From contig CAYFMJ010000001.1 in the NCBI GenBank assembly GCA_964344235.1, forward strand, positions 283,020 to 347,019: a DNA stretch of 64,000 nucleotides. Reading direction: 5' to 3'. This stretch comes from an uncultured Methanosarcinales archaeon. Its GTDB lineage: Archaea; Nanobdellota; Nanobdellia; Woesearchaeales; GW2011-AR9. The stretch's first letter is position 1. Every line of letters starts with the position of its first letter. Of this stretch, positions 43,539-61,945 are shown in pieces. The position numbers were made by a program, and so were the translations under genes. Below the pieces are notes generated by a model. That model saw nothing but the letters and a program-made list of their open reading frames with translations, searched no databases and was not told the DNA's origin.

Positions 43539-43635
43539 AGTACCAATATAGTGGACTAATTTAGAGTTCAAAGGTGGCCTTTGAAACAATCACTTTTACA
43601 TATGATTTATAAAGAGGAATACGTGTCGAACCATT

Positions 43636-44775: not shown

Positions 44776-44836
44776 TATCGAGTTGTCCATAAGATTATTC
44801 CATAAGTCTTAAGAAGGAGATTTTGACCATGCGAGT

Positions 44837-46324
44837 ATGGTTAATTATGGTTCAAAGCTTCTAAAAGGGGCCGGTATTATTTTCTTTATGAGTTTACTGA
44901 GTGCTGGTTTGGGGTATGGAATACGAATTATTCTTGCTAAGAATTTAAGTACTGCAGATTTTGGCCTTTTTTTTGCTGTTTATAACATAGTGTTGATGCT
45001 TGGTTGGATGAAAGGGTTTAGTTTTACGTCTGTTGTTCAAAAGTTTATACCTGGGTTTAAAGCTAAAGGAGATTATACGAAAATAAAATCAATGTTTATA
45101 TTTGTCCTTATCTTTACTTCATTAACGAGCTTACTGCTTGTCATCTTAATTTACTTATTCCCGGAACACCTTATTAACAGCTACTTTAAGAGTAATGTAG
45201 CAAAGTCATTGCTTTGGATAATTACTCTTTTTTATATTATTGATGACTTCTCAAAGCTTGTTGCGGGATACTTCCTTTCTGTACATTTGCCGTTTCTTTA
45301 CTCCCTGCGGGATTTATTAGTCCGATTATCCCTTTTTCTGCTTTTGTTTGTTGTTACTATTAATACTTTTTCTGTGGCCTGGCTCTATGTTGTAGCAGCA
45401 GCACTCGCACTTGTTGTTAATCTGTTACTTTTTATACGATATTTTCCTTTTCAGTATAAAACTTCAATCACAAAAGATCTAGTGCGGAAATTATTTAGCT
45501 TTAGCACTCCTCTTATTATACGGGATTTTTTTGGCGTCTTTTTGAGTAGGGTGGACAACCTTTTTCTTGTCTATTTCAGGCCTTTGACAGAAGTTGCTAT
45601 CTATAACACTATTTTGCCAACGGCAGAGCTCTTATTGTTTATTTCTCGACCTTTTGCAAAGGTCTTGTTTCCCCTGTCCTCAGAATTGTGGTTTATGCAA
45701 GATAAAAGAAGGCTGAGGAGTCTTCTAGGTATAACCCACAAATATTTGCTGTTACTTTTAATTCCACTCGCACTCTTTGTTGGTTATCTATCAACTTTTA
45801 TTTTAAGTCAATTTTTTGGCTCAGTGTATGTAGAAGGATCTTTTGGATTAAGGATATTAATTGTTGGAATCCTATTTTCTAGCTTGAATCTTGTGGGTTA
45901 TGCTGTTCTAAAAGGCATCGGAAAGACCAAAGAAGTGGCAGTAATTCATATATTTATAAATAGTCTTAATGTTATTCTTAATATAATCTTAATACCCTTA
46001 TTTGGATCATTGAATCAAGGTTATTTTGGGGCTATAATTGCAACAACATGCAGTTTCTTTGTTGCCTTTTTACTTTTGACATACTTCTTACATAAATTTT
46101 TGCACTATAGACTTTCTCTAGCTATCCTTTTATTTATCGTTACAAGTGGTTTTGCTTCTTTGCTTATTATGCATGTCATTGTAACACCGATTTCATCTTT
46201 GTATGTGCAATTAGCTGTTTTTATTGTTGGTTTCTCCCTGCTGTATCTCGTATTTATCTTTGTGTTGAAAATCACTTCAAAGCAAGAGATTGTTACTTTA
46301 TTGAAGATGTTGAGGTCATCTTAG
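44837..46324 (+). CDS. Wzx-like flippase (MOP superfamily polysaccharide biosynthesis protein), second copy
   Basis: 495 aa with ~14 TM helices. The gene is AT-rich. Confidence 0.65.
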   Translation: MVNYGSKLLKGAGIIFFMSLLSAGLGYGIRIILAKNLSTADFGLFFAVYNIVLMLGWMKGFSFTSVVQKFIPGFKAKGDYTKIKSMFIFVLIFTSLTSLLLVILIYLFPEHLINSYFKSNVAKSLLWIITLFYIIDDFSKLVAGYFLSVHLPFLYSLRDLLVRLSLFLLLFVVTINTFSVAWLYVVAAALALVVNLLLFIRYFPFQYKTSITKDLVRKLFSFSTPLIIRDFFGVFLSRVDNLFLVYFRPLTEVAIYNTILPTAELLLFISRPFAKVLFPLSSELWFMQDKRRLRSLLGITHKYLLLLLIPLALFVGYLSTFILSQFFGSVYVEGSFGLRILIVGILFSSLNLVGYAVLKGIGKTKEVAVIHIFINSLNVILNIILIPLFGSLNQGYFGAIIATTCSFFVAFLLLTYFLHKFLHYRLSLAILLFIVTSGFASLLIMHVIVTPISSLYVQLAVFIVGFSLLYLVFIFVLKITSKQEIVTLLKMLRSS

Positions 46325-46364
46325 TTTCTTAATATTTATAAATAGCTGACATTTTTTTTGGAGG

Positions 46365-47780
46365 ATGAAAAAGAACACATTAAATGGTCGAAAGTTTGTT
46401 TTTTTCTCTGGGTCGTCGGGGCGTGACAAGATGATGATAAAAATAGCGAAACAGCTTGCTTCACGAAATGGTGTGAAAACTCACTTCCTGACGTTTACAC
46501 CTGGCCAAACAGTTGATTATTTTGTTTCAGAGGGAATTAAGAGCGATTGTGTTACATCTGTTCTTCACCTCCCTAATCCTGCTGTGAAGCCAGACATGGC
46601 TTTCTTGAAGTCTAAGGAGATAGAATATGGGGTTCAGTTCTTTGACATCTGGCAAATTGCTGCGGCTAGAAGCAAAAAACGCCATAACATAAAGTCCACT
46701 AAGGTGCTGGCCCAAATGGAATTCTTTGTTCGAGAGCTTGAACACTTTATTAAAAAGGTTAAGCCCGATTATCTTGTTGTTTCTGGGGTTTCATCGTATG
46801 TTACCCTCCTTGCATACAAAATTTTTATGAAGAAGGGACTTCCTGTATTAGAGATAACAAACCCACGTATTCCTAATCGGTTTGCAATTGATGATAAACT
46901 GAAATCCGAGTGGCCCTTGCTTGTGAAGAAATACGAAGAAATAAAAAACACCTCTTTGAAGCCGCGGCAGAGGAAAGAAGCGCTGGACTTCATGCAGTCT
47001 TTCTATGTGAAACCTTTAAAGTCAGATAACCAGACTACAGAGAACCAGGACTTCTCACAAAGATTTGCGAGATACTTTAGACACATAAAAACATTGTATT
47101 ATAGACGCCGCCTTCCAGCATTAAGGGTTTTTTGGACTCCTATTAAAGATTTTTTCTTAAAGAATTCTTCACGGTTTGAACTTCCAGTAGATGGAGAAAA
47201 ATTTGTCTTTCACCCTTTACAAATCCAACCAGAGGTTTCTACTCTCCTTAAGGGCAAGTGGTATGTTAATCAAGTAGCCTTGATTGAAAATATCGCCAAA
47301 AGCCTTCCTTGCGATTACAAGCTTTATGTTAAAGAACATGTTAAAAATTATTCCCAGCGCCCCCCAAACTTTCATCGTGATATTAAGCGATTCCCTAATG
47401 TTCGTTTGATTGCCCCTTCCGCTGACACTATTTGGTTAGCCAAAAAATGTTCGCTGGTTACGACGATTACTGGAACGATTGGTTGGGAAGCAATCTTGTT
47501 ACGCAAGCCGGTTTTAACGTTTGGACAGGTCTTTTATAACCAGTTTGAAGAAGTCGTGTCTGTTGTGGATATTAAACAGCTTCCCAACATTATAAAAAGC
47601 AAACTTGATACTGTTGTTGATCTTGAGAAAACACTGCAATTTGTTAGTGCAGTACAACAGTCAACGTTTCCGGGAATAAGAGCTCTTCCAACTGACTGTC
47701 GAGATCGCTCATTAAAAGATGAGAATATCTTAGCGCTCACTCAAGGGTTAGAACAATATATTTATGCAATGAACCTTTGA
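46365..47780 (+). CDS. capsule-polysaccharide-biosynthesis family protein (KpsS/KpsC-like, possible beta-Kdo/nonulosonate transferase)
   Basis: 471 aa, soluble. The C-terminal half (FVFHPLQIQPE ... TITGTIGWEAILLRKPVLTFGQ) resembles the Capsule_synth fold with its HP motif. Assigned by pattern memory only. Confidence 0.35.
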   Translation: MKKNTLNGRKFVFFSGSSGRDKMMIKIAKQLASRNGVKTHFLTFTPGQTVDYFVSEGIKSDCVTSVLHLPNPAVKPDMAFLKSKEIEYGVQFFDIWQIAAARSKKRHNIKSTKVLAQMEFFVRELEHFIKKVKPDYLVVSGVSSYVTLLAYKIFMKKGLPVLEITNPRIPNRFAIDDKLKSEWPLLVKKYEEIKNTSLKPRQRKEALDFMQSFYVKPLKSDNQTTENQDFSQRFARYFRHIKTLYYRRRLPALRVFWTPIKDFFLKNSSRFELPVDGEKFVFHPLQIQPEVSTLLKGKWYVNQVALIENIAKSLPCDYKLYVKEHVKNYSQRPPNFHRDIKRFPNVRLIAPSADTIWLAKKCSLVTTITGTIGWEAILLRKPVLTFGQVFYNQFEEVVSVVDIKQLPNIIKSKLDTVVDLEKTLQFVSAVQQSTFPGIRALPTDCRDRSLKDENILALTQGLEQYIYAMNL

Positions 47781-47818
47781 TAGTGATTTGTATCGCTCTG
47801 TAGTTCTGTTGGTGATTT

Positions 47819-49525
47819 CTAGTCTTTGCCAAGTGTTTGGCGTAAATAACTTTTTGTTTCAATCAACAGCTTCTTTGGGTCTTTTAAGTAATGGGTCTTT
47901 TTAGCGTAGATTAAAGAGAGACCTTTGAGAAACCAGCCAGGAGGTTTTTTTATGAACGTTAGATTATAGTCTAAATAGGTAGTTGTTGTTGATGTAAGCT
48001 TACTTGCGATCTTCATGAGATCTCTCCTCCCTGCACCAAAAGGGTTATCTAAGGGAATCATTGTGAGATCATACGGTTTATTGCAAAGTTGAGAACAGTT
48101 TTTCATGAAATCATCAAAATGGATGGTGGTGAAGTGGATGTCCACTTGGTCCGTAGATCGGCCAACATCTTGATGTTCAAACGCCCATTTTTTGGAGAAG
48201 GAACTCTCTCGAACGTTAACGTTATAGTGCGTTATCTTTCCTTTTGGCTCAAACCCCCCGTATGTGGTTTTATAGTTGTTCATTATCTTCTTATTAATCA
48301 CCACATCTAACTCATAGTGTGAAAAAGTAGCATCGAGTGCTTTGATTACCATGGAAATAAAAGTGCTATTCGCAGAGCCTAATAACAATATTCGCTTAAT
48401 ATTTTGAATTTTCTTTATTGAGAAATGCTTCGCAATTTCTCGCTGAAACTTATTTGTTAGGTATGTTGTGTGGTATGTAACGAGGTCCTTTTCCTGCTGC
48501 TGCAATTCTTTTCGGAAAAAATCCAGTTCTACGGCATGCTCTGGCGAGGCAATGAGGTTGGTTTGCTCGTCGGGATCACGAGAAAGATCATAGAATTCTT
48601 CACTCTGCTCGTCAAATCGAAAAATATATTTATACTTCTCTGTCTGCAAGGCTGTAGCCCGTTCTTTCTGGAAAATATATCGTATGTCGCTGCGGAATAG
48701 TTTTTTTGTATAAGGAGCATCATGTTCAATAAGTGGCAGTAAACTCATCCCTCGAAATCCAAATTCACTGTGAGGAATATTTACAATATCTAGAATAGTT
48801 GGTGTTATGTCAAGGGGACTCACTAGGGTTTTTATTCTCTTTCTCGGACAAGAAGGATATTTCAAAAAAAGGTGTTGTAAAATATTTGAATTGGTAAGAA
48901 TAAGGTCATGGCGCTTCATGATTTTTTTTCGCTCATTGTCATTCCAACCATGGTCTGGGCAGAATAAAAAAAGACAATCATCATACAACCCTTCTTTCTT
49001 TAACCTCTCAATCAGAAGTCGTACGTATTTTGCAGTATTCTCTTGGTTGTTGTAGTTTAGAAGGAGAAAGAACGGTTCTTGTAGCTTTCTTTCTAACAGG
49101 TGATCCAACAGTTTGTTGATGTCCTGGCTTTTCCAATTATCATCATTTCTGATTCCATCGGGCAGCTCCTTTTGGTCTAGTGAAAGAACCGCTTGTTTTA
49201 ATCTCTTCCGAACTTCAGCGGAGTGTGTTGTTGCATATACTGTGTAACCATTTTTTTTAAGAATTCTACTAATGGAAGGAAAGTAATCATGGTCAAAGCT
49301 AAAATCCGCGTTAGTTCTACTGAGATGGATACCAGGCTGGCTAGTCATTAACGAGCTTTGTGACATCAAAGTGCTTGCAGTTGTGTCTACGACGTTTTCA
49401 AAGTACACTCCCTCTGAAGAGATTTCATCAATAATTTTATATTTCCCAAAACGATCCTTTCCAGGATAGTTGCGTATTGCTTCTCCAAGAATCCAGATTA
49501 CATTTAGCTTTTTTTTAGAAGACAT
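47819..49525 (-). CDS. sulfatase-fold (alkaline phosphatase superfamily) phospho-group transferase-like protein (EptA/LtaS catalytic-domain-like, no TM anchor) with extra C-terminal domain
   Basis: 568 aa. Present: NVIWILGEAIRN (cf. EptA VIVGESAR), the Thr/Ser nucleophile region DTTASTLMSQSSLMTS, and the metal site FLFCPDHGW. The last ~220 aa are unassigned. Confidence 0.55.
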   Translation of the reverse strand: MSSKKKLNVIWILGEAIRNYPGKDRFGKYKIIDEISSEGVYFENVVDTTASTLMSQSSLMTSQPGIHLSRTNADFSFDHDYFPSISRILKKNGYTVYATTHSAEVRKRLKQAVLSLDQKELPDGIRNDDNWKSQDINKLLDHLLERKLQEPFFLLLNYNNQENTAKYVRLLIERLKKEGLYDDCLFLFCPDHGWNDNERKKIMKRHDLILTNSNILQHLFLKYPSCPRKRIKTLVSPLDITPTILDIVNIPHSEFGFRGMSLLPLIEHDAPYTKKLFRSDIRYIFQKERATALQTEKYKYIFRFDEQSEEFYDLSRDPDEQTNLIASPEHAVELDFFRKELQQQEKDLVTYHTTYLTNKFQREIAKHFSIKKIQNIKRILLLGSANSTFISMVIKALDATFSHYELDVVINKKIMNNYKTTYGGFEPKGKITHYNVNVRESSFSKKWAFEHQDVGRSTDQVDIHFTTIHFDDFMKNCSQLCNKPYDLTMIPLDNPFGAGRRDLMKIASKLTSTTTTYLDYNLTFIKKPPGWFLKGLSLIYAKKTHYLKDPKKLLIETKSYLRQTLGKD

Positions 49526-49593
49526 GTTTACCTTATCTTTTCATTTTTCTGTTTTGCTTGCGTTTATAAGTTTTATTAAGTTACATACCAGTG

Positions 49594-51075
49594 TTACTGT
49601 TGCTTTTTCAGCGACTCACTTGTACTATACTCTTTTCCTCCATCTTCTTTCACACCATACTTTTTCAGAAGGTAATTATAGAGGAAATAAATAGTGGCGT
49701 CTTGGTCCTCGATCGGAAAGCTTGAAATGACCATTCCCTGTAATCGATGATTACCACATCGTTCTGCATGCCTCTGTGTTGGGGTGAAGATTTCCTTTGT
49801 TTTTAGTAGTGAAGAAGGCCAAAAGCGAAAATCGGTGTCATAGAATAGTAAGTCCGGTGCTTGGTCTAAGTGTTTACCTCTGTATACTTCCTCTTTTTTC
49901 TTTACTTCATGTTTGAAGCACCATCCCTGTTCGCGCTGTAACACTTCATATACTTTGTTCCTTACTCTCTCAAAATCTTCCTTAGCAACACTTCCTGCTT
50001 TGAAATCACTTGTATTGATATAAACGCCATTTTCCATTGCAAAAGCAACAGTATTCTCCCAGTCAATGAGTTTTTTGTTAACAGCATCGTTCCATTGCAA
50101 CGCACCCACTTCGGAGGGAATCAGTCTTGATACATTAGTGCCTTTCAGCAACGCATATGCTAACTTTTTGATTTTGAATTTCATGAGTAAGGTATCAATT
50201 TTGTTGGAATCTAACTTTAGTGTGCTTAAGACAGAAGAGATAAACGTGCTATTTTTTTTCAACTTGAGAAAGTCATTTCTCACTAACCATTCGTTAAGGT
50301 GGAATTTCCCATGCAACGCACCACCGCCGTGGTCGCTTAAGATGATGATTTCGCCATCATGGCCTGTGACGAGTTTTCCAACTTCATGATCGACGAGTTC
50401 ATAATAGTCATAAAATGCTTTTTCATATTCTTCATTCTCTTCATAGATTGGGCTATCGTGGTAGACATACCTGGCCATAAGGTGTTGTACGGCGTCAGTG
50501 CCGTTTTCAACAACAACAACAACGTCTGGTTTTAGTTCTTTGAGTAACTTTTTCACAACTTTAAAACGAACTTCTGTTGCGCTTCTGATTTGCTGTATTA
50601 ACTCATTCATGCTATTCCAGTTGTAGGTAAGTTGGTACTTAGGTAATTCCTCTTTAATCATCTCACGAATCTCTTTTGGGTAGATGAAGGAATCACTGTC
50701 CATGGAAGGTGTGTATACACCCGTTAGAATAAAGCCGTTAAAAGGGCGCGCAGGATATGTTCCTGGAACGTTTATAATTCCGCAACGGGCATCTACTTTC
50801 TCCCAAAAAGGAACAAAATTGTAATGTTTAACAGGGACTTTCGCGTAATCTTTTACTGTATGACAACCAAATAAACCAATCTCTCCTGGATTACTGCCGC
50901 TGACAATGCAAGACCACGCAGGAACAGAATTCGGTGGAATGACGCTTTTTACTTCTTTCAAAGAACCTGCTTTTATTATTTTTTCAATGTTAGGAATTTT
51001 CTTTTTTTTAATAAGTGCTTCAATTAAATTTTTACTTACTCCATCTAATCCAATGACAATTGTCTGTTTATTCAT
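49594..51075 (-). CDS. type I phosphodiesterase/nucleotide pyrophosphatase-family (NPP-like alkaline phosphatase superfamily) enzyme
   Basis: 493 aa. IVIGLDGVS is the N-terminal metal-site Asp. PPNSVPAWSCIVSGSNPGEIG is the NPP nucleophile region. The second metal site is ILSDHGG. Confidence 0.55.
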   Translation of the reverse strand: MNKQTIVIGLDGVSKNLIEALIKKKKIPNIEKIIKAGSLKEVKSVIPPNSVPAWSCIVSGSNPGEIGLFGCHTVKDYAKVPVKHYNFVPFWEKVDARCGIINVPGTYPARPFNGFILTGVYTPSMDSDSFIYPKEIREMIKEELPKYQLTYNWNSMNELIQQIRSATEVRFKVVKKLLKELKPDVVVVVENGTDAVQHLMARYVYHDSPIYEENEEYEKAFYDYYELVDHEVGKLVTGHDGEIIILSDHGGGALHGKFHLNEWLVRNDFLKLKKNSTFISSVLSTLKLDSNKIDTLLMKFKIKKLAYALLKGTNVSRLIPSEVGALQWNDAVNKKLIDWENTVAFAMENGVYINTSDFKAGSVAKEDFERVRNKVYEVLQREQGWCFKHEVKKKEEVYRGKHLDQAPDLLFYDTDFRFWPSSLLKTKEIFTPTQRHAERCGNHRLQGMVISSFPIEDQDATIYFLYNYLLKKYGVKEDGGKEYSTSESLKKQQ

Positions 51076-51188
51076 CTCTGCCGGGCTTTGAATTTTGTTT
51101 ATAAAGATTATGAATAAAGAATGAAAAAAAGAAAGATTTATATACGAAATGTCTCAGAAATAATAAATTAGTAAAACGAGAGGTATCA

Positions 51189-52898
51189 ATGGTTGAAAGT
51201 CAAAATGAGGAAATGTTAGGGACAGTGAAAACTTCTGGTTCGACGCCGAGCGGTGATAGTAGCCCTACAGTTCCTACAGTAAATGTTGCAGTGAACGCCC
51301 CTACAATTGATGGTGGCGTTCAAACACCCATTGCTCCTGCGGCGTCAAACGGAACTTCATTTGCAAATAATAGTGCTTCTGCAACAACTGAGAATGAAAA
51401 ATTTAGAGTGCTCTTAATCCACGCAAATTCTTCTATGGATACCTTAATTCCACCCAACTTGGCAACTCTATCTGCTTATTTGAAACAAGCGGGGAATGAA
51501 GTGAAACTATTTGATACAACGTTTTACAATACCCGTGGATTTACCGGTGATGATTCTCGAGTTAGAACCCTGCAGGTCAAAGAAACTAAGTTTGCTGATT
51601 TAGGAATTCACTTTGAGACGACGGATATGGTGGAAGATTTCATAAAAATAGTTGAGGAATACCAACCTAATCTTGTTGGATTATCTGCCGTTGAGTTGAC
51701 ATTCCAAATGGGGATGAATTTGATCAACGCTATGAAAGAGATCAGACCAGATATCCCGGTTATTGTAGGAGGCTCACATGCTATTACATCGCCTGAGGCA
51801 GTTGCTGCGGAGAAAAATGTTGATCTTATTTCAATCGGAGAAGCTGAAAAATCCTTTGTAGAGTTATGCACTAAATTACAGAACGGCGAAGATTATACTC
51901 AAATTCTGAACATGTGGGTTAAAAAGGATGGCCAAATTTACAAAAATAAGTTGGGAAATCTGATTGCAATGGATGATCTTCCTCGCCAAGATTGGGAAAT
52001 TTTTGATAAACGAAGAATCTACAAACCAATGTCGGGGACTATTGGCAGAACTGGTTGTTTTGAGCTTACGCGCGGCTGTGTTTTCTCTTGCACTTTTTGT
52101 ATCAATGAATTCTTAAATAAGACGCACAAACATCGAAGTTATCGAGAGAAAAGTATCCCTAAATTTATCGAGGAAGTGCAATATTTCAAAGAGAAATATG
52201 GGATTGAATATGTTTATATTCTCGCAGAGATGTTTCTTCCAACTTCTAAAGAGAGAGTACGAGAGTTTTCCCGCCTGTGGAAAGAGAAGGTTGGTCTTCC
52301 ATTTTGGTGTCAGGTAAGGGTTGAGGGCGTTGATGAGGAAAATGCTAGACTGCTTGAAGAAGCGGGTTGTGTATCAATCTCGGCTGGTATTGAGAGCGGT
52401 AATGAAGAATTTAGAAGAAATGTTATTCATAGAATGATGAGTAATGAAAAAATAATTGAAGCGTTTAGAATTCTCAAGAGCACAAAAATGCAAATTTCGG
52501 GCAATAGCATCATTGGGTTCCCTGGAGAAACTCGCGAACAAATATTTGATACTATTGAGCTTAATAGAAAATTAGATTTGGATAATATTATGATTCATGT
52601 CTTTAATCCTTATCGAGGTACAACTTTGTATGATGTTAGCGTTGAAAGAGGGTACATTACTCCCAACCACATGGCGGGTGATTACAGGGCAGATTTTACA
52701 TTAAACATGCCACACATTACAAAGGAAGAAATCCTTGGACTACAAAGAACTTTTAACATGTACGTCAAATTTCCAAGAGAAATGTGGCCCGAAATAAAAA
52801 TTGCGGAAAGGATGGATGAAGAAGGGAACAAGAAATTTGCAGAACTGAGTAAAAAGTTTAAAGAAGAATTCTTTGCAAAACCATTAATGATGCATTAA
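51189..52898 (+). CDS. B12-binding radical SAM enzyme, class B (Fom3/PhpK/GenK-like methyltransferase candidate)
   Basis: 569 aa. The N-terminal ~60 aa are low-complexity Ser/Thr/Pro-rich. The B12-binding domain is FRVLLIHAN...LSAYLKQAGNEVKLFD. The radical SAM motif is TRGCVFSCTFCINEF. Paralogous to 7367..9079. Confidence 0.8.
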   Translation: MVESQNEEMLGTVKTSGSTPSGDSSPTVPTVNVAVNAPTIDGGVQTPIAPAASNGTSFANNSASATTENEKFRVLLIHANSSMDTLIPPNLATLSAYLKQAGNEVKLFDTTFYNTRGFTGDDSRVRTLQVKETKFADLGIHFETTDMVEDFIKIVEEYQPNLVGLSAVELTFQMGMNLINAMKEIRPDIPVIVGGSHAITSPEAVAAEKNVDLISIGEAEKSFVELCTKLQNGEDYTQILNMWVKKDGQIYKNKLGNLIAMDDLPRQDWEIFDKRRIYKPMSGTIGRTGCFELTRGCVFSCTFCINEFLNKTHKHRSYREKSIPKFIEEVQYFKEKYGIEYVYILAEMFLPTSKERVREFSRLWKEKVGLPFWCQVRVEGVDEENARLLEEAGCVSISAGIESGNEEFRRNVIHRMMSNEKIIEAFRILKSTKMQISGNSIIGFPGETREQIFDTIELNRKLDLDNIMIHVFNPYRGTTLYDVSVERGYITPNHMAGDYRADFTLNMPHITKEEILGLQRTFNMYVKFPREMWPEIKIAERMDEEGNKKFAELSKKFKEEFFAKPLMMH

Positions 52899-53548
52899 TA
52901 GGCTGGGCTGAAATCAAGTTCGTCATCCTGGATATAGGCAATCTTTTTTTGCAGTGCAATATATGCTTTCTGCAGCTCCCGACCTAGATAGGCGGCGTGG
53001 TCATATCGAGAAAGAAGGTTTTCTTTAATGGCAGTTTGGTAAATCTCAAGTGGTTTCGTGCCAATGATTTTCACACTGACTTTGTTGACTGTAGGACAAA
53101 ACCCCACATGAATCTCCTTCTTCTGATGATCTACTTTGATTAAAAAATAGCCTTTTTGATCCATCATAAATTCTTTGCGATCATCATATTGAGCGTGGAT
53201 TACTCTTAATGCGGTGGTATCAACCTCTGTTTTCACAACTTTTGTATTATCCTCTTTGTTGATTACCTGGATGGCATTTACGGGACAAGCCTCAGCAGCG
53301 GCAATAAGCTTTTGGGCCTCTTGGGGTGTACAGACAAGACTTCTAACACTATTCTGGTTTTCCTGATGACCTTTGACAAGTTCTGCCGTGTTTTCTTTTA
53401 TGAAAAAATTATTTGGGTCAATCCGTTGACAAACCCCGTTAGCAACACATTTTTTCTGATCTAATAGTACTTGAAAGGATTTAGCTTTTTCTTCTGAGGT
53501 TTGATGTTTATTCTGTTCTGTTGATTGTTGTTCTGTCATGTAAAACAC
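52895..53548 (-). CDS. ferredoxin-domain protein (N-terminal single-cluster Fd paralogous to 9174..9470) fused to an uncharacterised C-terminal domain
   Basis: 217 aa. KKCVANGVCQRIDPNNFF ... LVCTPQE ... AEACPVNAIQV has the same Cys spacing as the 9174 ferredoxin. The C-terminal ~110 aa are unassigned. Its stop overlaps the rSAM stop in a convergent arrangement. Confidence 0.55.
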   Translation of the reverse strand: MFYMTEQQSTEQNKHQTSEEKAKSFQVLLDQKKCVANGVCQRIDPNNFFIKENTAELVKGHQENQNSVRSLVCTPQEAQKLIAAAEACPVNAIQVINKEDNTKVVKTEVDTTALRVIHAQYDDRKEFMMDQKGYFLIKVDHQKKEIHVGFCPTVNKVSVKIIGTKPLEIYQTAIKENLLSRYDHAAYLGRELQKAYIALQKKIAYIQDDELDFSPAY

Positions 53549-53666
53549 GGAAGCTACTTTCTTTATAAATATTCTGAATATCTTGGTTGGAGGCGTGTTC
53601 CGACAGTGGCCTTAATATCTTCCTTCACTAATCGAAGCCCTACAATAGATCATGAGAACTTAGTTA

Positions 53667-53702
53667 CGCCGGGTCATGTAGTACTCTGTACTACAGTGGC
53701 AC
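53667..53702. repeat. perfect palindrome TGTAGTAC-TCT-GTACTACA followed by tandem 11-mer ACTACARTGGC x2, within a 344-bp non-coding gap
   Basis: Read directly. Positions 53667-53685 form an 8-bp stem with a 3-nt loop. Positions 53680-53701 are ACTACAGTGGC ACTACAATGGC. A related CGACAGTGGCC lies at 53613-53623. Confidence 0.6.
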
Positions 53703-53892
53703 TACAATGGCACATAACAGAAATGGGATATTTTTGGAATGTTCCGATAACCATTGATTTTTGTTAGAGATGATTATTTAGCACTCAGCCAGGTGTTCCA
53801 CAATATTTATAAGACCAATTATTTTTTTGAGCGTAAAATGAGCTTGGTGCTCTTTTGGTTGGAGAAAGCTATGTGTTGGTGGTTAATGTATT

Positions 53893-54657
53893 ATGAAAGC
53901 TCTTATCTTAAATTCAGGAGTGGGCAATAGAATTGCTGATGTGGTTAGTGGTAAGCCTAAGTGTTTGATTGAAATTGGCCCCGGAACAACGATCCTGAGT
54001 CAGCAGATCCAGCATCTTCTTGATGCAAACATTAATGAATGTATCGTGACTACAGGTCCTTTTGTTGAAGATATCAAGAATCATATCCGACAGAAATTCC
54101 CTCAGATGAATGTCCAATATGTACATAACCCCCTTTACAGAACGACTAATTATATTTATTCGTTGTACTTAGCTCGAAAGTTTATTGATGACGATATTCT
54201 ATTGCTCCACGGGGATTTAGTATTCGAACCAGAGGTTCTTACACGATTACTTCAGGATTCTGCTCCTAATGCCATCCCTGTTGACACATCTGTGCCGCCG
54301 CCGGAGAAAGATTTCAAAGGCCGAATTGAGCAAGGGTGCATCAAAGAGGTAGGAGTTAATACATCTGGGTCGGATTGCTATTTTGTTGCACCTCTCTATA
54401 AGTTTTCTCAACAATCTTTCCTTGATTGGCTGGTACAGATCGAGCAATTCATTTTTGAGGGCGAGCATACCGTTCATGCCGAGAATGCGCTGAACCAAAT
54501 TATGGATGCACTCCAGGTTAAGGCTGTGCCTATTAATGGAATATTTTGTTCTGAGATTGATACAAAAGAAGATATGGATTCTGTGTGCACGTATTGGCGG
54601 AGGAGGAGCAAGAGAAACGATTATTCTCTTTTGGGTGAGAGCTTAACAAGCACCTAA
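53893..54657 (+). CDS. sugar-phosphate/phospho-alcohol nucleotidyltransferase (LicC/PntC-like cytidylyltransferase candidate)
   Basis: 254 aa. The N-terminal KALILNSGVGNRIADVVSGKPKCL is the GxGxR NTP-transferase signature. Confidence 0.65.
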   Translation: MKALILNSGVGNRIADVVSGKPKCLIEIGPGTTILSQQIQHLLDANINECIVTTGPFVEDIKNHIRQKFPQMNVQYVHNPLYRTTNYIYSLYLARKFIDDDILLLHGDLVFEPEVLTRLLQDSAPNAIPVDTSVPPPEKDFKGRIEQGCIKEVGVNTSGSDCYFVAPLYKFSQQSFLDWLVQIEQFIFEGEHTVHAENALNQIMDALQVKAVPINGIFCSEIDTKEDMDSVCTYWRRRSKRNDYSLLGESLTST

Positions 54658-55757
54658 TTTAGCTGATATTGTTTAACGATTTCTTTACCGAGGTTATGTT
54701 GAATAAATCCTATGGCATGAGAATTACCTTCTTCTGCGACTCTTTGTTGTAACTTTTTGTTGGATAATAGTAATAAGATCTTAGTAGATAGGTCTCTGTG
54801 ACTCCTATTCTTAAAAATAATGCAGTGTCCCCCTGCGGCTTCTCTGAGAGCCCCCCCGCTAGAAACGACTAAAGGAAGTCTCGAGAGTTGTCCCTCAACA
54901 ACAACGTTTCCAAACCCTTCGTCTTTGGAAGGAACAACCATGATTTCTGAGGAGGCTAGAAGGTCCCATTTATCTTGTCCGGTCTTCCGGCCATGGAATG
55001 TGACAGTGTTTTTCAAGTTTAGCGTTTTTGTTATGCTCTGCATTTTTTGTAGGTAATCCTTTGAGCCAGAACCAATAATGTGGAGAGAGACGTTAGGATA
55101 ATCTTTTTTTACTAAGTAAATTGCGTTAAGTAATATATCGACGCCTTTCTGAGAACTGATGCGACCGAGAAAAACGATTGAATCTTTTATTTTCTCGCGC
55201 TTCGTTTTATGAATTGGGGTAAAATTGTTGTAGAGTGTAACTTTCTTTCTCTTAAGGATTATTGAGAACGAAGCTTTGTTTTTGAGATAATCTGAAATGA
55301 AAAATACTTTGTTGAAGAATGGTAAAAACGGTTGCATAAATATCAGGTAGAAAGTGCCCAGGATTTTTGCAACAGGTGGCCCTTCCAGGAATGTATTGTG
55401 GAACGTTACGTATGTTGGTATTTTTCTGTGCTTCCCAATAAGTAATGTTAGTTCTGGGAGCAATGAAGAGTAATGGTGGCTATGAAAAACGTCTGCGTCA
55501 ATGAGACGCAATTCTTTGATAAAACCACGTAAGATGCGGGATGTATTATTTATTCCCCATAGTGTTGGCAATTCGATGACTTTAATACCCCGCCAATGAT
55601 ATTCAACACGATTTTTCTGTTCTCCTCCGCAGATGAGGGTTACTTCGTGCCCTAGCTCTGCTTGTGCTACCAAACCCCAGCGGTTGGCGAAACATTCTAC
55701 CTCTGGTTTGTCTCGCTGAATATACATGTTGTTAATATACGTGTGGACGATTTTCAT
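54654..55757 (-). CDS. GT4 (GT-B, group 1) glycosyltransferase
   Basis: 367 aa. VVPSKDEGFGNVVVEGQLSRLPLVVSSGG is the EX7E motif region. Confidence 0.8.
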   Translation of the reverse strand: MKIVHTYINNMYIQRDKPEVECFANRWGLVAQAELGHEVTLICGGEQKNRVEYHWRGIKVIELPTLWGINNTSRILRGFIKELRLIDADVFHSHHYSSLLPELTLLIGKHRKIPTYVTFHNTFLEGPPVAKILGTFYLIFMQPFLPFFNKVFFISDYLKNKASFSIILKRKKVTLYNNFTPIHKTKREKIKDSIVFLGRISSQKGVDILLNAIYLVKKDYPNVSLHIIGSGSKDYLQKMQSITKTLNLKNTVTFHGRKTGQDKWDLLASSEIMVVPSKDEGFGNVVVEGQLSRLPLVVSSGGALREAAGGHCIIFKNRSHRDLSTKILLLLSNKKLQQRVAEEGNSHAIGFIQHNLGKEIVKQYQLN

Positions 55758-56812
55758 TTTGCTGTTATTGTATGAATGAGTTCTGCTACTTTTGCCCCTA
55801 ATACTTTTGAGTGGAACTGTTGATTGTAGGTTTTCCGAGCCTGCCGTTCAATTGTTTTGAGGAGGGGTTTATTTTCTTTTAGCAACTCTATTTTCTCTGC
55901 AAGTTCCTTCCCGTCGGAAAAATTACAGAAGATAATATCTTTCTTATCAGTAAGAAATTCTTTACAGGCTTTTGCTTCGCCAGTGATAACTGCTTTCGCC
56001 ATTGCTAAACCCTCTATGACTTTGAACGCGACAACTCTCTGCATTTTAGCAACGGCACCGTCGAATTGACCTAATAAAACATCTGCATTCTTTATTTTTT
56101 GAGGGATCATTTGGTAAGTACAGGGACCTTCAAACACTACGTTGTTTAAATCGTTCTGTTCTTTTAGCTGCTGAGCTGGTTTCAATAATGGCCCGGTTCC
56201 GACAAACCGGAATTCAATATCTTTCTTTTCTTTGAGAATTTTTGCAGCGTCTAGAATGTATTGTATACCATGCCCAGCAATGAATGAACCATGGAATAGC
56301 ACTCTGAATTTTTCTTTTTCTTTTTGACCTCTCTGGTCTCTCTCTTGCGGGAAAAAGAGGGTATCGTCAGCCCCCAAAGGAACGCACGTAAACTTATTCG
56401 TAGGAATATTGAATGTTTCTGAAAAGTACTTTCCATGTTCTTCCGTATCAATGATTGTCCTACTTGAGAATTTGCAGGGGATTTTGTCAGTGAACCATAA
56501 CAATTTTGCTCGTAATGATTTCTTTGGCACACATTTTTTCGATTCTACGAGAGCTTCATAATTGGAGATAAAGCAGTCGTGAATGATGGGTTTAAAACAG
56601 AAAAGCCTTGCGAGAAACCAGACAATAATACCTTTTGTGATAAGAGCGTCGTAATCGTTTTTAAGAATGCGCCAACAGAGTTTAATATATTTTAATGAAC
56701 TTGAAGGGGTGTAAAGGATGACGTTTACGCTGTTAGCTTTCAACCCTTCGTATAGGGATTGCCCACGACCGTAATTAGAAAAGTCATGGTCGGCAACTAT
56801 TAGGACTTTCAT
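55754..56812 (-). CDS. GT-B fold glycosyltransferase (GT4-like)
   Basis: 352 aa. The C-terminal Rossmann domain has FRVLFHGSFIAGHGIQYIL ... FKVIEGLAMAKAVITGE. Translationally coupled with the downstream GT4 gene. Confidence 0.6.
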   Translation of the reverse strand: MKVLIVADHDFSNYGRGQSLYEGLKANSVNVILYTPSSSLKYIKLCWRILKNDYDALITKGIIVWFLARLFCFKPIIHDCFISNYEALVESKKCVPKKSLRAKLLWFTDKIPCKFSSRTIIDTEEHGKYFSETFNIPTNKFTCVPLGADDTLFFPQERDQRGQKEKEKFRVLFHGSFIAGHGIQYILDAAKILKEKKDIEFRFVGTGPLLKPAQQLKEQNDLNNVVFEGPCTYQMIPQKIKNADVLLGQFDGAVAKMQRVVAFKVIEGLAMAKAVITGEAKACKEFLTDKKDIIFCNFSDGKELAEKIELLKENKPLLKTIERQARKTYNQQFHSKVLGAKVAELIHTITAK

Positions 56813-56845
56813 TTGTTTGTGCTAACCCCGCTTATTGCAGAGAAA

Positions 56846-57847
56846 TTAAGTCTCATGATTTGGACGGAACTTATTCGCTTGAAGCATTTCTTTGTAGTCG
56901 TCAATAATCTCTTGTACAATTTCTCTAAAACTGTACTCTGGTTGCCAATTGACATGTGACTGAATCTTTGAAATGTCTGGAATTTTGTTCCAAGCTTCTT
57001 CGTAGTCTTTCCCATAAATTTCTTTCGGGTCAACTTGGACGATTTCAGATGATGATCCTGTCATTTCTTTTACGATTTGGGCAACTTCAAGAATTGAATG
57101 TTCATTGTCGGGGTTACCAATGTTATACACTTCTCCTGAAACATCAGAGTTCATGACTGCAACAAAACCATTCACAATGTCTTTTACATGAGTAAATGTT
57201 CGGCGTTGTTGCCCACCGCTGAAGACTGTGATTGGTTTGTTTGTTAATGCTGCGTACACAAAGCGAGGTAATACAAAACCAGCTTTTGCACTTTGCCCAA
57301 CGCCAACGATATTGAATGGCCTAATAACAGTATAATTTAAATCGTTAGCTTTTGCAAAATTGTGTAAACAAATTTCTGTTAATAGCTTACTAACGCCATA
57401 TTCTAACCGAGTTGTTATCTTAGAAGGAACGACACTGTGAAGGTCTTCTCGTTGTGCTGTATTCCCTGGATCTTTTCCATAAACTTCAGAAGTGGAAATG
57501 AAAATAACTTTACAGCCAGTTCTGGAAGCGTGCTTAGCGATTTTAAGAGTTTCATTTAAGATGATTGAACCCATCTTACCTGCATATTTTAGGACCCCTG
57601 CCGGGCCAACGGGACTTGCTAAGTGGTAAATTTCATCATATTTCTTTGAGAGGGGAAATTCTTCAACAGAACAAATATGAATTTCATTAATTTTGGGTGA
57701 TTTAAGGTCTTCTGGTGTTAAGGAGTTGTTAGAAAGGTTGTCAACGATTTCAATACTGCAATCTTCATGTTGTATTAGGTGCTCAATCAAATGAGAACCA
57801 ATAAACCCTAAGCCTCCTGTGATAAGAATTTTTTTCATAGCAAACAC
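56846..57847 (-). CDS. NAD-dependent sugar-nucleotide epimerase/dehydratase (GalE/WbpP-like)
   Basis: 333 aa. KKILITGGLGFIGSHLIEHL is the Rossmann motif. YGVSKLLTE is the YxxxK motif. Confidence 0.8.
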   Translation of the reverse strand: MFAMKKILITGGLGFIGSHLIEHLIQHEDCSIEIVDNLSNNSLTPEDLKSPKINEIHICSVEEFPLSKKYDEIYHLASPVGPAGVLKYAGKMGSIILNETLKIAKHASRTGCKVIFISTSEVYGKDPGNTAQREDLHSVVPSKITTRLEYGVSKLLTEICLHNFAKANDLNYTVIRPFNIVGVGQSAKAGFVLPRFVYAALTNKPITVFSGGQQRRTFTHVKDIVNGFVAVMNSDVSGEVYNIGNPDNEHSILEVAQIVKEMTGSSSEIVQVDPKEIYGKDYEEAWNKIPDISKIQSHVNWQPEYSFREIVQEIIDDYKEMLQANKFRPNHET

Positions 57848-57955
57848 CGAATAGTAGCTGCTTTTTGAATTTGGCTCATATATAAAGGTTGCTAAGGAGT
57901 GTTCACAATTATTTGGGTTGAGCTTCTAATTGCATAAAGCTGTCAAGAGATCTCA

Positions 57956-58630
57956 TTAAACTTCTTCACTAGAGAGATCTTTCACACACAAGATTTGCGA
58001 AGCTGCGTGGGGTTTATGTTTTGTGAACTTTTGTGTGATATCTGAAATAAGTAACCAAAAGTATTGTGGTTTGAAGCGGATATTTGCTCTTTCTCCACGG
58101 AGAGATTTTAGACCGTGGATGCCAGTAACTTGGAAACCTAAATTCTTCATTTCTTCTACTTCCCACCCTGATTTATGTTCTTGCCAAGGGTTTCCTTCAC
58201 AGGCTTCCTGTGGCATGAAACCATTGGGTGTAAAGATGATTACTTTTTTCCGTGCTATTTTCTCCATCATTTTTATGAGTTGTAAGCCTTCTTCTTTCTC
58301 AAAGTGTTCGATGACGTCAGATGCCAAAACGCAGTCAAATGAGTTTTCAGGAAAGTGTTCGCCGATATCCATGATGTTAATTTTCACGTATTTGTCGTGG
58401 ATGTTATTGGCTTTACTTTTATCAATACTAGGTTGGAAGAGGTCGACCCCAACACACTCTAGATTATTTGAGAAGTTTCTAATAGGGGAGTTTGAACCAC
58501 AACCAACATCAAGTAAACTCTTACTTTTCCCCACACTAGCTTCTAGCTCTTTCCGGTAGTCTGGGAACACCTTTACGTATACTTTGTCGTACACCCATTT
58601 TGCGATTTTGTATGGTTTCACGGATATCAA
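57956..58630 (-). CDS. class I SAM-dependent methyltransferase
   Basis: 224 aa. Motif I is LLDVGCGSNSPIRNF. The acidic residue is at CVGVDLF. The motif IV region is LASDVIEHF. Confidence 0.75.
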   Translation of the reverse strand: MISVKPYKIAKWVYDKVYVKVFPDYRKELEASVGKSKSLLDVGCGSNSPIRNFSNNLECVGVDLFQPSIDKSKANNIHDKYVKINIMDIGEHFPENSFDCVLASDVIEHFEKEEGLQLIKMMEKIARKKVIIFTPNGFMPQEACEGNPWQEHKSGWEVEEMKNLGFQVTGIHGLKSLRGERANIRFKPQYFWLLISDITQKFTKHKPHAASQILCVKDLSSEEV

Positions 58631-58676
58631 AATAAAGGGTTATCTATTTAAGCTTTTGGCAATACTGGTTGTGATA

Positions 58677-59864: not shown

Positions 59865-59880
59865 CTTATTTAAATAAACT

Positions 59881-61942: not shown

Positions 61943-61945
61943 TTT

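What the first reader, a model, noticed from the sequence alone, without database searches (positions are those of the whole stretch)
52895..53548. Each B12-radical SAM gene has its own paralogous ferredoxin neighbour
The stand-alone ferredoxin at 9174..9470 and the N-terminal domain of 52895..53548 share the same Cys pattern: C-x2-G-x2-C-x3-P-x2-FF ... A-x-CPV. Each lies next to one of the two class-B rSAM genes, both convergently arranged with overlapping 3' ends. The second copy carries an extra ~110-aa C-terminal domain of unknown function. Duplicated Fd-rSAM pairing suggests dedicated electron-donor partners rather than use of the general ferredoxin pool.
Basis: seen in the sequence. Interest (0 to 1): 0.55.

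Follow-up and report, generated by a model that had tools for sequence, protein, structure and literature searches.

The report
Ferredoxin partners beside B12 radical-SAM genes
Two small iron-sulfur proteins each sit next to a vitamin-B12-dependent radical SAM enzyme gene in this archaeal window, and one belongs to a widespread, unstudied ferredoxin-plus-DUF4346 family that is repeatedly encoded beside such enzymes (once fused to one), which makes it a candidate for their missing natural helper.

Summary

- **The two proteins.** 9174..9470 (probable start 9198) and 52895..53539 both encode three-cysteine, single-cluster ferredoxin domains. Each is the immediate neighbour of one of the window's only two B12-binding radical SAM genes.
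Only the second pair is convergent with overlapping stops. The first pair is divergent. The motif was also slightly mis-transcribed.
- **The extra domain.** The "unknown" C-terminal domain is Pfam PF14251 (DUF4346).
- **Conservation elsewhere.** I examined 60 species-level genome loci of DPANN archaea (the small-genome group that includes Woesearchaeota and Nanoarchaeota) carrying a full Fd-DUF4346 gene. B12-rSAM genes fill 19% of the immediately adjacent gene slots, against 2% four or more genes away (p = 5.5e-10). This holds in all four orientations and across at least 12 rSAM subfamilies. One locus encodes a single Fd-DUF4346-B12-rSAM protein.
- **Not obligatory.** Several orthologous rSAM loci lack the ferredoxin nearby.
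- **DUF4346 in other contexts.** It is also fused to, or in operons with, MtrA-type corrinoid proteins and a BtuF-family binding protein. It also occurs fused to a pterin-binding domain, a cytidylyltransferase-like domain and NUDIX.
- **Best reading.** Fd-DUF4346 is a B12-rSAM-servicing redox partner. The mechanism is inferred, not shown.
- **Context.** The paired rSAM 51189..52898 sits in a phosphonate-glycan gene cluster.

The parts
52895..53539 (-). Fd-DUF4346 two-domain protein, 214 aa. The ORF extends to a GTG at 53548.
   Evidence: Pfam Fer4_13/Fer4_15 plus PF14251. The identical 214-aa protein is in public databases on a 412,874-bp contig. The AF2 model has pLDDT 93. At least 203 homologues share this architecture.
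53240..53470 (-). Single-cluster ferredoxin domain (aa about 24-100) with three invariant Cys (C31, C37, C85)
   Evidence: In the 54-sequence alignment, only C31, C37 and C85-P86 are invariant in this domain. The position of the second Cys of a CxxCxxC motif is N or A in 44 of 54 sequences and never C or D. Foldseek matches P. furiosus [3Fe-4S] Fd 1siz (TM 0.83 normalised by target) and P450-partner 3Fe-4S Fds.
52916..53203 (-). PF14251 (PterinBD-DUF4346) domain, the most conserved part of the protein (YDD..EF..D..GYFLI ... DHAAYLGRELQKA ... Y.QDDEL)
   Evidence: Pfam E=4e-20. NCBIfam matches the C-terminal ends of TIGR00284 and of a long MtrA variant, NF002128. Invariant columns are listed. 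The domain-only AF2 model has pLDDT 88, and there is no significant PDB fold match (best E=0.75).
51189..52898 (+). B12-binding radical SAM enzyme 'rSAM_B' (569 aa), convergent with the Fd-DUF4346 gene, 4-bp overlap
   Evidence: Pfam B12-binding 59 bits and Radical_SAM 77.5 bits. The CVFSCTFC motif is present. It reaches no NCBIfam equivalog cutoff. Orthologues at 72-84% identity are linked to PEP mutase clusters.
9198..9470 (+). Stand-alone single-cluster ferredoxin (90 aa from ATG 9198; the ORF opens at 9174)
   Evidence: Fer4_15 28.1 bits, above cutoff. Three Cys. Orthologues at 52-70% identity occupy the same syntenic slot in L096, L097, L098 and L100. A TTTAAATA box lies about 40 bp upstream of 9198 (read from the sequence).
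7367..9070 (-). B12-binding radical SAM enzyme 'rSAM_A' (567 aa from ATG 9070), divergent from the stand-alone Fd
   Evidence: Pfam B12-binding 57.4 bits and Radical_SAM 80.9 bits. The database protein is 567 aa. Conserved synteny runs PMT_2 - Alg14 - Alg13 - flippase - [Fd] - rSAM_A - class I methyltransferase - STT3.
9418..10722 (-). Polysaccharide flippase (Wzx-like). Its 3' end, not that of the rSAM, overlaps the 3' end of the stand-alone Fd.
   Evidence: Pfam Polysacc_synt. Coordinates.
42237..44775 (+). Phosphonate-forming context of rSAM_B: a cytidylyltransferase-PEP mutase fusion (42237..43538) and an Fe-alcohol dehydrogenase (43636..44775)
   Evidence: TIGR02320 PEP_mutase scores 391 bits against a cutoff of 319.6, with an N-terminal CTP_transf_like domain. 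The same genes flank rSAM_B orthologues in L081-L089 and L105.
53893..54657 (+). Nucleotidyltransferase (NTP_transf_3), divergent from the Fd-DUF4346 gene and part of the same cluster
   Evidence: Pfam result. A 67%-identical orthologue sits next to Ppd and PEP mutase in L105.

Best explanation
The window comes from a DPANN-type archaeon. It carries two three-cysteine, [3Fe-4S]-type single-cluster ferredoxin genes, and each is the direct neighbour of a class-B (cobalamin-binding) radical SAM gene inside cell-surface glycan clusters.

The second gene, 52895..53539, belongs to a large DPANN-wide family. In this family the ferredoxin is fused to the uncharacterised domain PF14251 (DUF4346).

I propose that Fd-DUF4346 is a class-dedicated servicing partner of B12-radical SAM enzymes. 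The DUF4346 module would dock on, or act on, the cobalamin-binding part of the enzyme. The Fe-S cluster would deliver the low-potential electron(s) these enzymes need each turnover. One electron reduces the radical-SAM [4Fe-4S] cluster. A second may return cob(II)alamin to cob(I)alamin.

The plain ferredoxin 9198..9470 would play the simpler electron-donor role for rSAM_A in the AglB/Alg13-14/flippase cluster.

rSAM_B itself most likely modifies (methylates) a nucleotide-activated phosphonate made by the neighbouring Fom1-like PEP mutase and FomC-like dehydrogenase.

Shown: domain identities, adjacency, its statistical conservation, the fusion, and the other DUF4346 contexts. Inferred: physical interaction, direction and target of electron transfer, and the rSAM substrate.
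For: 1. Domain identities.
2. Neighbourhood statistics over 60 species-level loci. rSAM fills 21 of 109 rank-1 slots against 11 of 514 at rank 4 or more (OR 10.9, Fisher p=5.5e-10). Rank-1 orientations are 6 downstream on the same strand, 5 upstream on the same strand, 5 convergent and 5 divergent.
3. Rosetta-stone fusion. L050 7683..9884 is one 733-aa ORF with Fer4_15 + PF14251 + B12-binding + Radical_SAM, and DUF4346 directly precedes the B12 domain.
4. Among close orthologues of this very pair, adjacency survives inversions. L105 is co-directional with a 77-bp gap (Fd-DUF4346 66%, rSAM 84% identity). The window is convergent. L052, L089 and L035 are divergent.
5. The adjacent rSAMs fall into at least 12 subfamilies. 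This argues for a role tied to the shared B12-rSAM scaffold rather than to one substrate.
6. Several genomes carry two Fd-DUF4346 paralogues (L009/L016, L020/L050).
7. DUF4346 recurs independently with corrinoid proteins.
   - MtrA-DUF4346 fusions: L069, P0433, P0445, P0447, P0451. The MtrA part matches PDB 5laa at E=5e-39.
   - A Peripla_BP_2 (BtuF-family)-DUF4346 fusion, P0361.
   - MtrA-MtrH-core MetE-DUF4346 operons in Thermoplasmata, L070-L080 and L104.
8. The stand-alone Fd is conserved at 52-70% identity in the same slot beside rSAM_A orthologues in 4 of 7 other contigs.
9. Established knowledge. Class-B rSAM methylases need a reductant for the [4Fe-4S] cluster and leave cob(II)alamin, which must be re-reduced. 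Their physiological reductants are largely unknown. This rests on my own knowledge and general reviews such as PMC9204698, which was listed but not read in detail.
Against: - No experiment and no docking model was possible.
- About half of the Fd-DUF4346 loci show no rSAM within the available flanks. Several sit instead beside GT2 / ADP-heptose genes (L014, L020, L021, L027, L048, L066).
- rSAM_B orthologues L082 and L088 lack the Fd within 6 kb on either side.
- There is no co-diversification signal after dereplication (Mantel r=-0.09, p=0.74).
- Three-Cys [3Fe-4S] clusters usually have potentials too high to reduce a radical-SAM cluster or cob(II)alamin efficiently (general knowledge).
- DUF4346 is also fused to non-corrinoid domains: CTP_transf_like, NUDIX and the DHPS-like Pterin_bind domain. 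It could therefore be a generic oligomerisation or scaffold module.
- Both gene types live in glycan islands, which inflates co-occurrence. The within-locus rank control addresses much of this.
Confidence: 0.5

Rival explanations
1. Cofactor-handling rival. DUF4346 binds or hands over the corrinoid itself, acting in loading, protection or repair of cobalamin in organisms that must scavenge B12. The ferredoxin domain only keeps the cofactor in the right oxidation state. The protein would then be a B12 chaperone rather than the catalytic-cycle reductant.
For: DUF4346 is fused to MtrA-type cobalamin-binding domains and to a BtuF-family Peripla_BP_2 domain. In the L050 fusion it sits directly N-terminal to the B12-binding domain. 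The highly conserved polar motif DHAAYLGRELQKA looks like a ligand or active site rather than a mere interface.
Against: The domain is only about 95 residues (three strands and two helices) and has no resemblance to any known cobalamin-binding fold. No binding data exist. Stand-alone DUF4346 genes in DPANN contigs L102 and L103 have no corrinoid protein nearby, although those contigs are short.
Confidence: 0.15
2. Coincidence or island effect. The ferredoxins are ordinary members of the cell's ferredoxin pool, or serve other enzymes of glycan biosynthesis. They lie near B12-rSAM genes only because both gene types accumulate in the large, frequently rearranged surface-glycan islands of DPANN genomes.
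For: Many Fd-DUF4346 loci have no adjacent rSAM but do have glycosyltransferases or heptose genes. The pairing is lost in several orthologous loci. There is no co-diversification.
Against: Within the same loci, rSAM density drops from 19% at rank 1 to 2-5% at ranks 2-9, which an island effect does not predict. Adjacency persists through inversions among close orthologues. The four-domain fusion in L050 also argues against it.
Confidence: 0.15
3. Scaffold or regulatory rival. DUF4346 is a promiscuous oligomerisation or docking module that assembles diverse enzymes (Fd, MtrA, DHPS-like, nucleotidyltransferase, NUDIX) into complexes. The Fd domain could be a redox sensor rather than an electron donor.
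For: The partner domains are very diverse. The domain is always C-terminal or stand-alone. Weak fold similarities are only to small alpha/beta dimerisation-type domains.
Against: Invariant charged and polar residues across very distant lineages suggest chemistry or ligand binding. The bias of partners toward corrinoid systems is hard to explain with a neutral scaffold.
Confidence: 0.1
4. Pterin rival. As the Pfam name hints, DUF4346 is a pterin-related module, and Fd-DUF4346 links a methyl-pterin donor or a pterin redox reaction to the rSAM.
For: It is fused to DHPS-like Pterin_bind proteins (TIGR00284 family; L074) and lies in operons with MtrH.
Against: The Fd-DUF4346 loci examined show no pterin-binding or pterin-biosynthesis genes among their recurrent neighbour clusters. 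Most DUF4346 contexts involve a corrinoid protein without any pterin protein, namely B12-rSAM, MtrA fusions and the BtuF-like fusion.
Confidence: 0.05

Closest known systems
Dedicated [3Fe-4S] ferredoxins encoded next to their cytochrome P450 (e.g. M. tuberculosis Fdx/FdxE-CYP143, PDB 8amp/8amq; R. palustris HaA2 Fd with CYP194A4, PDB 4id8)
   Same: The fold and the three-Cys Cx5C...CP cluster site match; these are among the top Foldseek hits. Both belong to the same Pfam families, Fer4_13/15. The genomic logic is also the same: a small Fd encoded beside the enzyme it reduces.
   Different: The partner here is a B12-radical SAM enzyme, not a P450. One copy carries an extra DUF4346 domain that no P450 ferredoxin has. 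The electrons needed are of much lower potential.
Reductive activators of corrinoid proteins (RACo of CoFeSP; RamA of methylamine methyltransferases) and flavodoxin-dependent reactivation of MetH
   Same: The concept matches: an Fe-S or flavin electron carrier that docks on a corrinoid protein to return Co(II) to Co(I). DUF4346 likewise co-occurs with corrinoid proteins (MtrA, B12-rSAM).
   Different: No ATPase (ASKHA) domain and no [2Fe-2S] or 2x[4Fe-4S] module was found. Pfam detects only Fer4_13/15 plus PF14251. There is no sequence or fold relationship. The activity is untested.
Fosfomycin-type phosphonate pathway: Fom1 (cytidylyltransferase-PEP mutase), FomC (Fe-ADH), Fom3 (B12-rSAM that methylates cytidylyl-2-hydroxyethylphosphonate; PMC8158854, PMC6697681)
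   Same: The window has the Fom1-like fusion, a FomC-like Fe-ADH and a B12-rSAM in one cluster. rSAM_B orthologues are consistently linked to these genes plus Ppd.
   Different: No Fom4 epoxidase was seen among the annotated ORFs, and no Ppd anywhere in the window. rSAM_B reaches no equivalog threshold, for example PhpK family 100.8 bits against 600. The cluster is embedded in glycan-assembly genes, so the product is probably a surface phosphonoglycan, not an antibiotic.
Other PF14251-containing proteins: TIGR00284 DHPS-like proteins (MJ0301 type), long MtrA variants (NF002128), stand-alone DUF4346
   Same: They share the same C-terminal domain with the invariant DHAAYLGRELQKA core.
   Different: The N-terminal partner here is a ferredoxin. 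The DPANN type has a Cys where the Thermoplasmata type has a Tyr plus a 10-residue insert.

Membership tests
Single-cluster ferredoxin (Pfam Fer4_13 / Fer4_15) | Profile score above the curated gathering threshold | tested here: met
   Fd 9174..9470: Fer4_15 28.1 bits against 22.4. Fd-DUF4346: Fer4_13 33.2 against 24.5 and Fer4_15 27.3 against 22.4.
Single-cluster ferredoxin (Pfam Fer4_13 / Fer4_15) | Cx5C ... CP cluster-binding cysteines, three ligands ([3Fe-4S] type) | tested here: met
   C31, C37 and C85-P86 are invariant in 54 homologues. The middle position is N or A, never C or D. The stand-alone Fd and its orthologues have CIGAGAC...CPV. The cluster type itself was not measured.
Single-cluster ferredoxin (Pfam Fer4_13 / Fer4_15) | Ferredoxin fold | tested here: met
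   The AF2 model (pLDDT 93) superposes on P. furiosus Fd 1siz with target-normalised TM 0.83 and rmsd 1.5 A.
PF14251 PterinBD-DUF4346 | Profile score above the gathering threshold and the conserved DHAAYLGRELQKA core | tested here: met
   72.7 bits against 29.6, covering the full profile 1-86. The core is invariant in alignments A1-A3.
Class B (cobalamin-binding) radical SAM enzymes | N-terminal B12-binding domain plus a Radical_SAM core with CxxxCxxC | tested here: met
   B12-binding scores 59.0 and 57.4 bits (cutoff 32.1). Radical_SAM scores 77.5 and 80.9 bits (cutoff 29.5). The motifs CVFSCTFC and CPYSCTFC are read.
Fom3 / PhpK-type phosphonate B12-rSAM methyltransferases | Equivalog- or subfamily-level sequence match | tested here: not met
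   The PhpK family TIGR04479 scores 100.8 bits (rSAM_B) and 131 bits (rSAM_A) against a cutoff of 600. No Fom3 model is in the library.
Fom3 / PhpK-type phosphonate B12-rSAM methyltransferases | Genomic linkage to PEP mutase and early phosphonate enzymes | tested here: met
   The window has PEP mutase (equivalog level) and Fe-ADH. Orthologous loci also have Ppd.
ATP-dependent reductive activators of corrinoid enzymes (RACo / RamA) | ASKHA-type ATPase domain joined to an Fe-S domain | tested here: not met
   Only Fer4_13/15 and PF14251 are detected in the 214-aa protein. Its length leaves no room for an ATPase.
Dedicated redox partner of the adjacent rSAM (functional class) | Conserved gene neighbourhood or fusion with the enzyme across genomes | tested here: met
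   Rank-1 enrichment has OR 10.9 and p=5.5e-10. One fusion exists. Adjacency is retained through inversions. It is not universal.
Dedicated redox partner of the adjacent rSAM (functional class) | Physical interaction and electron transfer to the enzyme | not testable with these tools
   No multimer prediction or experiment was available.

The most novel reading that the evidence does not exclude
DUF4346 is a previously unrecognised corrinoid-servicing module. It would act in reductive activation or cofactor handling, and is shared by B12-radical SAM enzymes, MtrA-type corrinoid proteins and corrinoid-dependent core methionine synthase systems. Fd-DUF4346 would then be the physiological, ATP-independent reductant or activator of archaeal class-B radical SAM enzymes.
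Probability: 0.25. Interest if true: 0.8.

Novelty: new variant of a known kind. Interest (0 to 1): 0.55.

Why it matters
Class-B radical SAM enzymes make antibiotics, cofactors, lipids and modified proteins. They are notoriously hard to activate in vitro, and their natural electron donors are mostly unknown, as is how cob(II)alamin is recycled. A conserved, genomically coupled Fd-DUF4346 partner would give a concrete protein to test. It would also give a first functional handle on a large domain of unknown function: at least 6,382 proteins at E ≤ 1e-5 among the 8,000 candidates scored, and no paper in the searched library names it. That same domain decorates MtrA-type corrinoid proteins and sits in MtrA-MtrH-core MetE operons. 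Separately, the data point to phosphonate-decorated surface glycans in DPANN archaea that involve a B12-rSAM tailoring step.

Tried and rejected
1. **Sequence search of the PDB with the whole protein.** Only weak polyferredoxin hits appeared, and nothing matched DUF4346.
3. **Literature search.** DUF4346, PF14251, IPR025595 and PterinBD returned zero papers. The MtrA structure paper and the core-MetE paper do not mention the domain.
4. **Co-diversification (Mantel) test of Fd-DUF4346 against the adjacent rSAM.** The initial result (r=0.61, p=2e-4) came from near-identical genome pairs. After dereplication r=-0.09 and p=0.74. I rejected it as evidence.
5. **The invariant Cys148 of DUF4346 as a fourth cluster ligand.** Stand-alone DPANN DUF4346 proteins without any Fd domain also have this Cys, and distant DUF4346 proteins have Tyr. 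Not supported.
6. **My first impression that PEP mutase is a frequent neighbour of Fd-DUF4346.** The 13 loci in cluster 6 were an artefact of single-linkage clustering through the cytidylyltransferase domain. Most members are ADP-heptose genes. The real PEP mutase link is with rSAM_B orthologues specifically.
7. **More fusions like L050.** None appeared among the 150 best 50%-identity cluster representatives, so the fusion is rare.
8. **DUF6513 (N-terminus of the DHPS-like proteins) as a hidden B12-binding domain.** No supporting Pfam hit.
9. **tRNA and Rfam scans of the window.** Nothing found.
Full report
**What is in the window**

ORF listing confirms a 98-aa ORF at 9174..9470(+) and a 217-aa ORF at 52895..53548(-).
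- The two proteins align with BLASTP E=3e-9, 26% identity over 88 residues.
- Both pass Pfam thresholds for the single-cluster ferredoxin families Fer4_15 and Fer4_13.
- Both have only three cluster cysteines, arranged Cx5C...CP (CIGAGAC...CPV and CVANGVC...CPV).
The shared string is C-x3-G-x-C-x4-P-x2/3-FF, and these features are generic for the family.
- Likely true starts are ATG 9198 and ATG 53539. Orthologues of the first begin M-x-KKY. The public protein for the second is 214 aa, on a 412,874-bp contig.
- The neighbours 7367..9079(-) and 51189..52898(+) both have B12-binding plus Radical_SAM domains with CxxxCxxC motifs.
- tblastn finds no further rSAM or Fd copy in the 64 kb.
- In a random order of the 62 genes, both Fds lying beside different rSAMs has p of about 0.002.

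**Geometry**

The first pair is not convergent. The rSAM is on the minus strand with its start at 9079/9070, and the Fd runs away from it on the plus strand, so they are divergent with a spacer of about 95-130 bp. The Fd's 3' end overlaps the Wzx-type flippase 9418..10722(-), not the rSAM.

**The extra domain**

The C-terminal ~110 residues are Pfam PF14251, "PterinBD-DUF4346" (E=4e-20, 72.7 bits against a cutoff of 29.6). NCBIfam aligns the region to the C-terminal ends of TIGR00284 (DHPS-like protein, MJ0301 type) and of a long MtrA variant, NF002128.

An alignment of 54 homologues shows this is the most conserved part of the protein (YDD..EF..D..GYFLI, DHAAYLGRELQKA, Y.QDDEL). In the Fd domain only the three Cys and the Pro are invariant. 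The position that would hold the fourth Cys is N or A in 44 of 54 sequences, so the site is of the [3Fe-4S] type.

AlphaFold2 gives a confident two-domain model with pLDDT 93. Foldseek matches the N-terminal domain to P. furiosus [3Fe-4S] ferredoxin and to P450-partner 3Fe-4S ferredoxins. The DUF4346 domain modelled alone (pLDDT 88: three strands, then two helices) has no significant match in the PDB (best E=0.75). No paper in the library mentions DUF4346 or PF14251.

**Is the pairing conserved? Fd-DUF4346**

The architecture is common: at least 203 homologues, in Woesearchaeota and Nanoarchaeota. A scan of one genome per GTDB species returned 80 loci. I called ORFs and labelled rSAM homologues by BLAST.

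Among the 60 loci with a complete Fd-DUF4346 ORF:
- B12-rSAM genes occupy 21 of 109 immediately adjacent gene slots (19%).
- At ranks 2-3 the figure is 4-5%, and at rank 4 or more it is 11 of 514 (2.1%). The odds ratio is 10.9 and Fisher p=5.5e-10.
- The 21 adjacent cases split evenly over all four orientation classes (6/5/5/5).
- The adjacent rSAMs belong to at least 12 different subfamilies at 35% identity.
- In L050 the four domains Fer4_15, PF14251, B12-binding and Radical_SAM form one 733-aa ORF. This fusion is rare; none appears among the 150 best cluster representatives.
- Two genomes carry two Fd-DUF4346 loci each.

**Orthologues of this window's second pair**

Thirteen loci carry rSAM_B orthologues at 72% identity or more. 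One search adds L105 at 84%.
- An Fd-DUF4346 gene lies within 2.5 kb in L105, L081, L086, L089, L052 and L035.
- Orientation differs between these loci. L105 is co-directional with a 77-bp gap. L052, L089 and L035 are divergent. The window is convergent.
- L082 and L088, with full 6-kb flanks, lack it.

**Orthologues of the first pair**

rSAM_A orthologues (51-79% identity) sit in a conserved block: PMT_2, Alg14, Alg13, flippase, [Fd], rSAM_A, class I methyltransferase, STT3/AglB. A Fd orthologue at 52-70% identity occupies the slot in L096, L097, L098 and L100. It is absent in L099, L101 and the P0132 contig.

**What else DUF4346 keeps company with**

The family is large. At least 6,382 proteins score E ≤ 1e-5 among the 8,000 candidates scored. 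At the 50%-identity cluster level there are 1,804 hits.

Besides stand-alone proteins of about 110 aa, the architectures found are:
- MtrA-DUF4346: L069, P0433, P0445, P0451, and P0447 with an intein. The MtrA part matches the cobalamin-binding MtrA structure 5laa at E=5e-39.
- Peripla_BP_2 (BtuF family)-DUF4346: P0361.
- DUF6513-Pterin_bind-DUF4346: L074.
- CTP_transf_like-DUF4346: P0362.
- A weak NUDIX-DUF4346.

In Thermoplasmata and Methanomassiliicoccales the stand-alone gene ends an operon MtrA, MtrH, Meth_synt_2 (core MetE), DUF4346. This is seen in most of the Thermoplasmata-type loci L070-L080, and again in L104. Core methionine synthases are thought to take methyl groups from corrinoid proteins (PMC7857596). 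The commonest denominator of these contexts is a corrinoid-dependent methyl-transfer system, but not every partner domain fits.

**Context of rSAM_B**

The surrounding genes are:
- 42237..43538, a cytidylyltransferase-PEP mutase fusion (TIGR02320, 391 bits against a cutoff of 319.6);
- 43636..44775, an Fe-alcohol dehydrogenase;
- then a flippase, a capsule-synthesis protein, a sulfatase-family protein and a phosphodiesterase-family protein;
- on the far side of the pair, a nucleotidyltransferase and glycosyltransferases.

This mirrors Fom1, FomC and Fom3 of fosfomycin biosynthesis, where the B12-rSAM Fom3 methylates cytidylyl-2-hydroxyethylphosphonate (PMC8158854). It also mirrors the nucleotidyl-activated phosphonate tailoring of cell surfaces (PMC6697681). 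rSAM_B orthologues are more constantly linked to PEP mutase, Ppd and Fe-ADH than to the ferredoxin. Neither rSAM reaches any NCBIfam equivalog cutoff, so the substrate is inferred from context only.

**Interpretation**

The best-supported reading is that Fd-DUF4346 is functionally coupled to B12-radical SAM enzymes as a class. I propose that the DUF4346 domain targets the cobalamin-binding part and the Fe-S cluster supplies electrons. The plain Fd would be a simpler neighbour-encoded donor for rSAM_A.

Points against:
- The association is incomplete.
- Many Fd-DUF4346 genes sit beside glycosyltransferase or heptose genes instead.
- There is no co-diversification after removing near-identical pairs.
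- [3Fe-4S] clusters generally have high potentials.
- DUF4346 has promiscuous fusion partners.

Rivals are a corrinoid chaperone role, a scaffold module, an island-effect coincidence, and a pterin-related role.

**Novelty**

Dedicated neighbour-encoded 3Fe-4S ferredoxins are well known for P450s. Fe-S reductive activators are known for corrinoid methyltransferases, but they have ATPase domains, which are absent here. A ferredoxin fused to DUF4346 and genomically coupled to, and once fused with, class-B rSAM enzymes appears undescribed in the searched literature. I rate it a new variant of a known kind, of moderate interest. The payoff would be higher if DUF4346 proves to be a general corrinoid-servicing module.

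Noticed in passing
window 42237..44775 (and the whole window): The Fom1-like cytidylyltransferase-PEP mutase fusion and the Fe-ADH are present, but no phosphonopyruvate decarboxylase is detectable anywhere in the 64 kb (tblastn with the L082 Ppd). Orthologous clusters L082, L086, L089 and L105 have a gene in that slot (L082 reads like a Ppd; L105 is a TPP enzyme by Pfam) between or beside these genes.
   Followed up: partly
L070-L080 and L104 (e.g. L070 7289..10104; L104 1584..4348): A conserved Thermoplasmata / Methanomassiliicoccales operon encodes an MtrA-like corrinoid protein, MtrH, a core MetE (Meth_synt_2) and a stand-alone DUF4346. It looks like a self-contained methyl-pterin to corrinoid to homocysteine methionine synthase system with an unexplained fourth component.
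   Followed up: partly
L050 7683..9884: A single 733-aa ORF fuses Fer4_15, DUF4346, B12-binding and Radical_SAM. The same MAG also has a separate unfused Fd-DUF4346 gene (L020).
   Followed up: yes
proteins P0361, P0362, P0447, L069 1..1188: Unusual DUF4346 fusions were found: with a BtuF-family periplasmic-binding-protein domain, with a cytidylyltransferase-like domain, with an MtrA domain interrupted by an intein, and as MtrA-DUF4346-NUDIX.
   Followed up: partly
L083, L086, L087, L090, L092-L095: rSAM_B orthologues frequently have a second, distantly related (about 25-30% identity) B12-rSAM gene directly next to them. This is not the case in the window.
   Followed up: no
L002, L017, L064: In three genomes a stand-alone Fd related to 9174..9470 (35-42% identity), an Fd-DUF4346 gene and a B12-rSAM gene all lie in or around one short cluster. 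Both Fd types may therefore serve the same enzyme there.
   Followed up: no
window 875..2104: An ATP-citrate lyase-type protein (Citrate_synth_N ATP-grasp plus Citrate_bind domains; E about 1e-67) is encoded on a DPANN-type contig.
   Followed up: no
window 38259..40439: A 726-aa fusion joins a DegT/DesI-type sugar aminotransferase with an NAD-dependent epimerase/dehydratase domain.
   Followed up: no
window 1..64000: GC skew is positive in almost every 2-kb bin, and the cumulative skew rises nearly monotonically across the whole window although genes lie on both strands.
   Followed up: no
window 3850..6624, 10737..11769, 11738..13564: rSAM_A and its Fd are embedded in an N-glycosylation-type block (AglB/STT3, split Alg13/Alg14, PMT_2, flippase, class I methyltransferase 6640..7347). 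This block is syntenic across Woesearchaeota contigs. The rSAM may therefore modify a lipid-linked glycan.
   Followed up: partly
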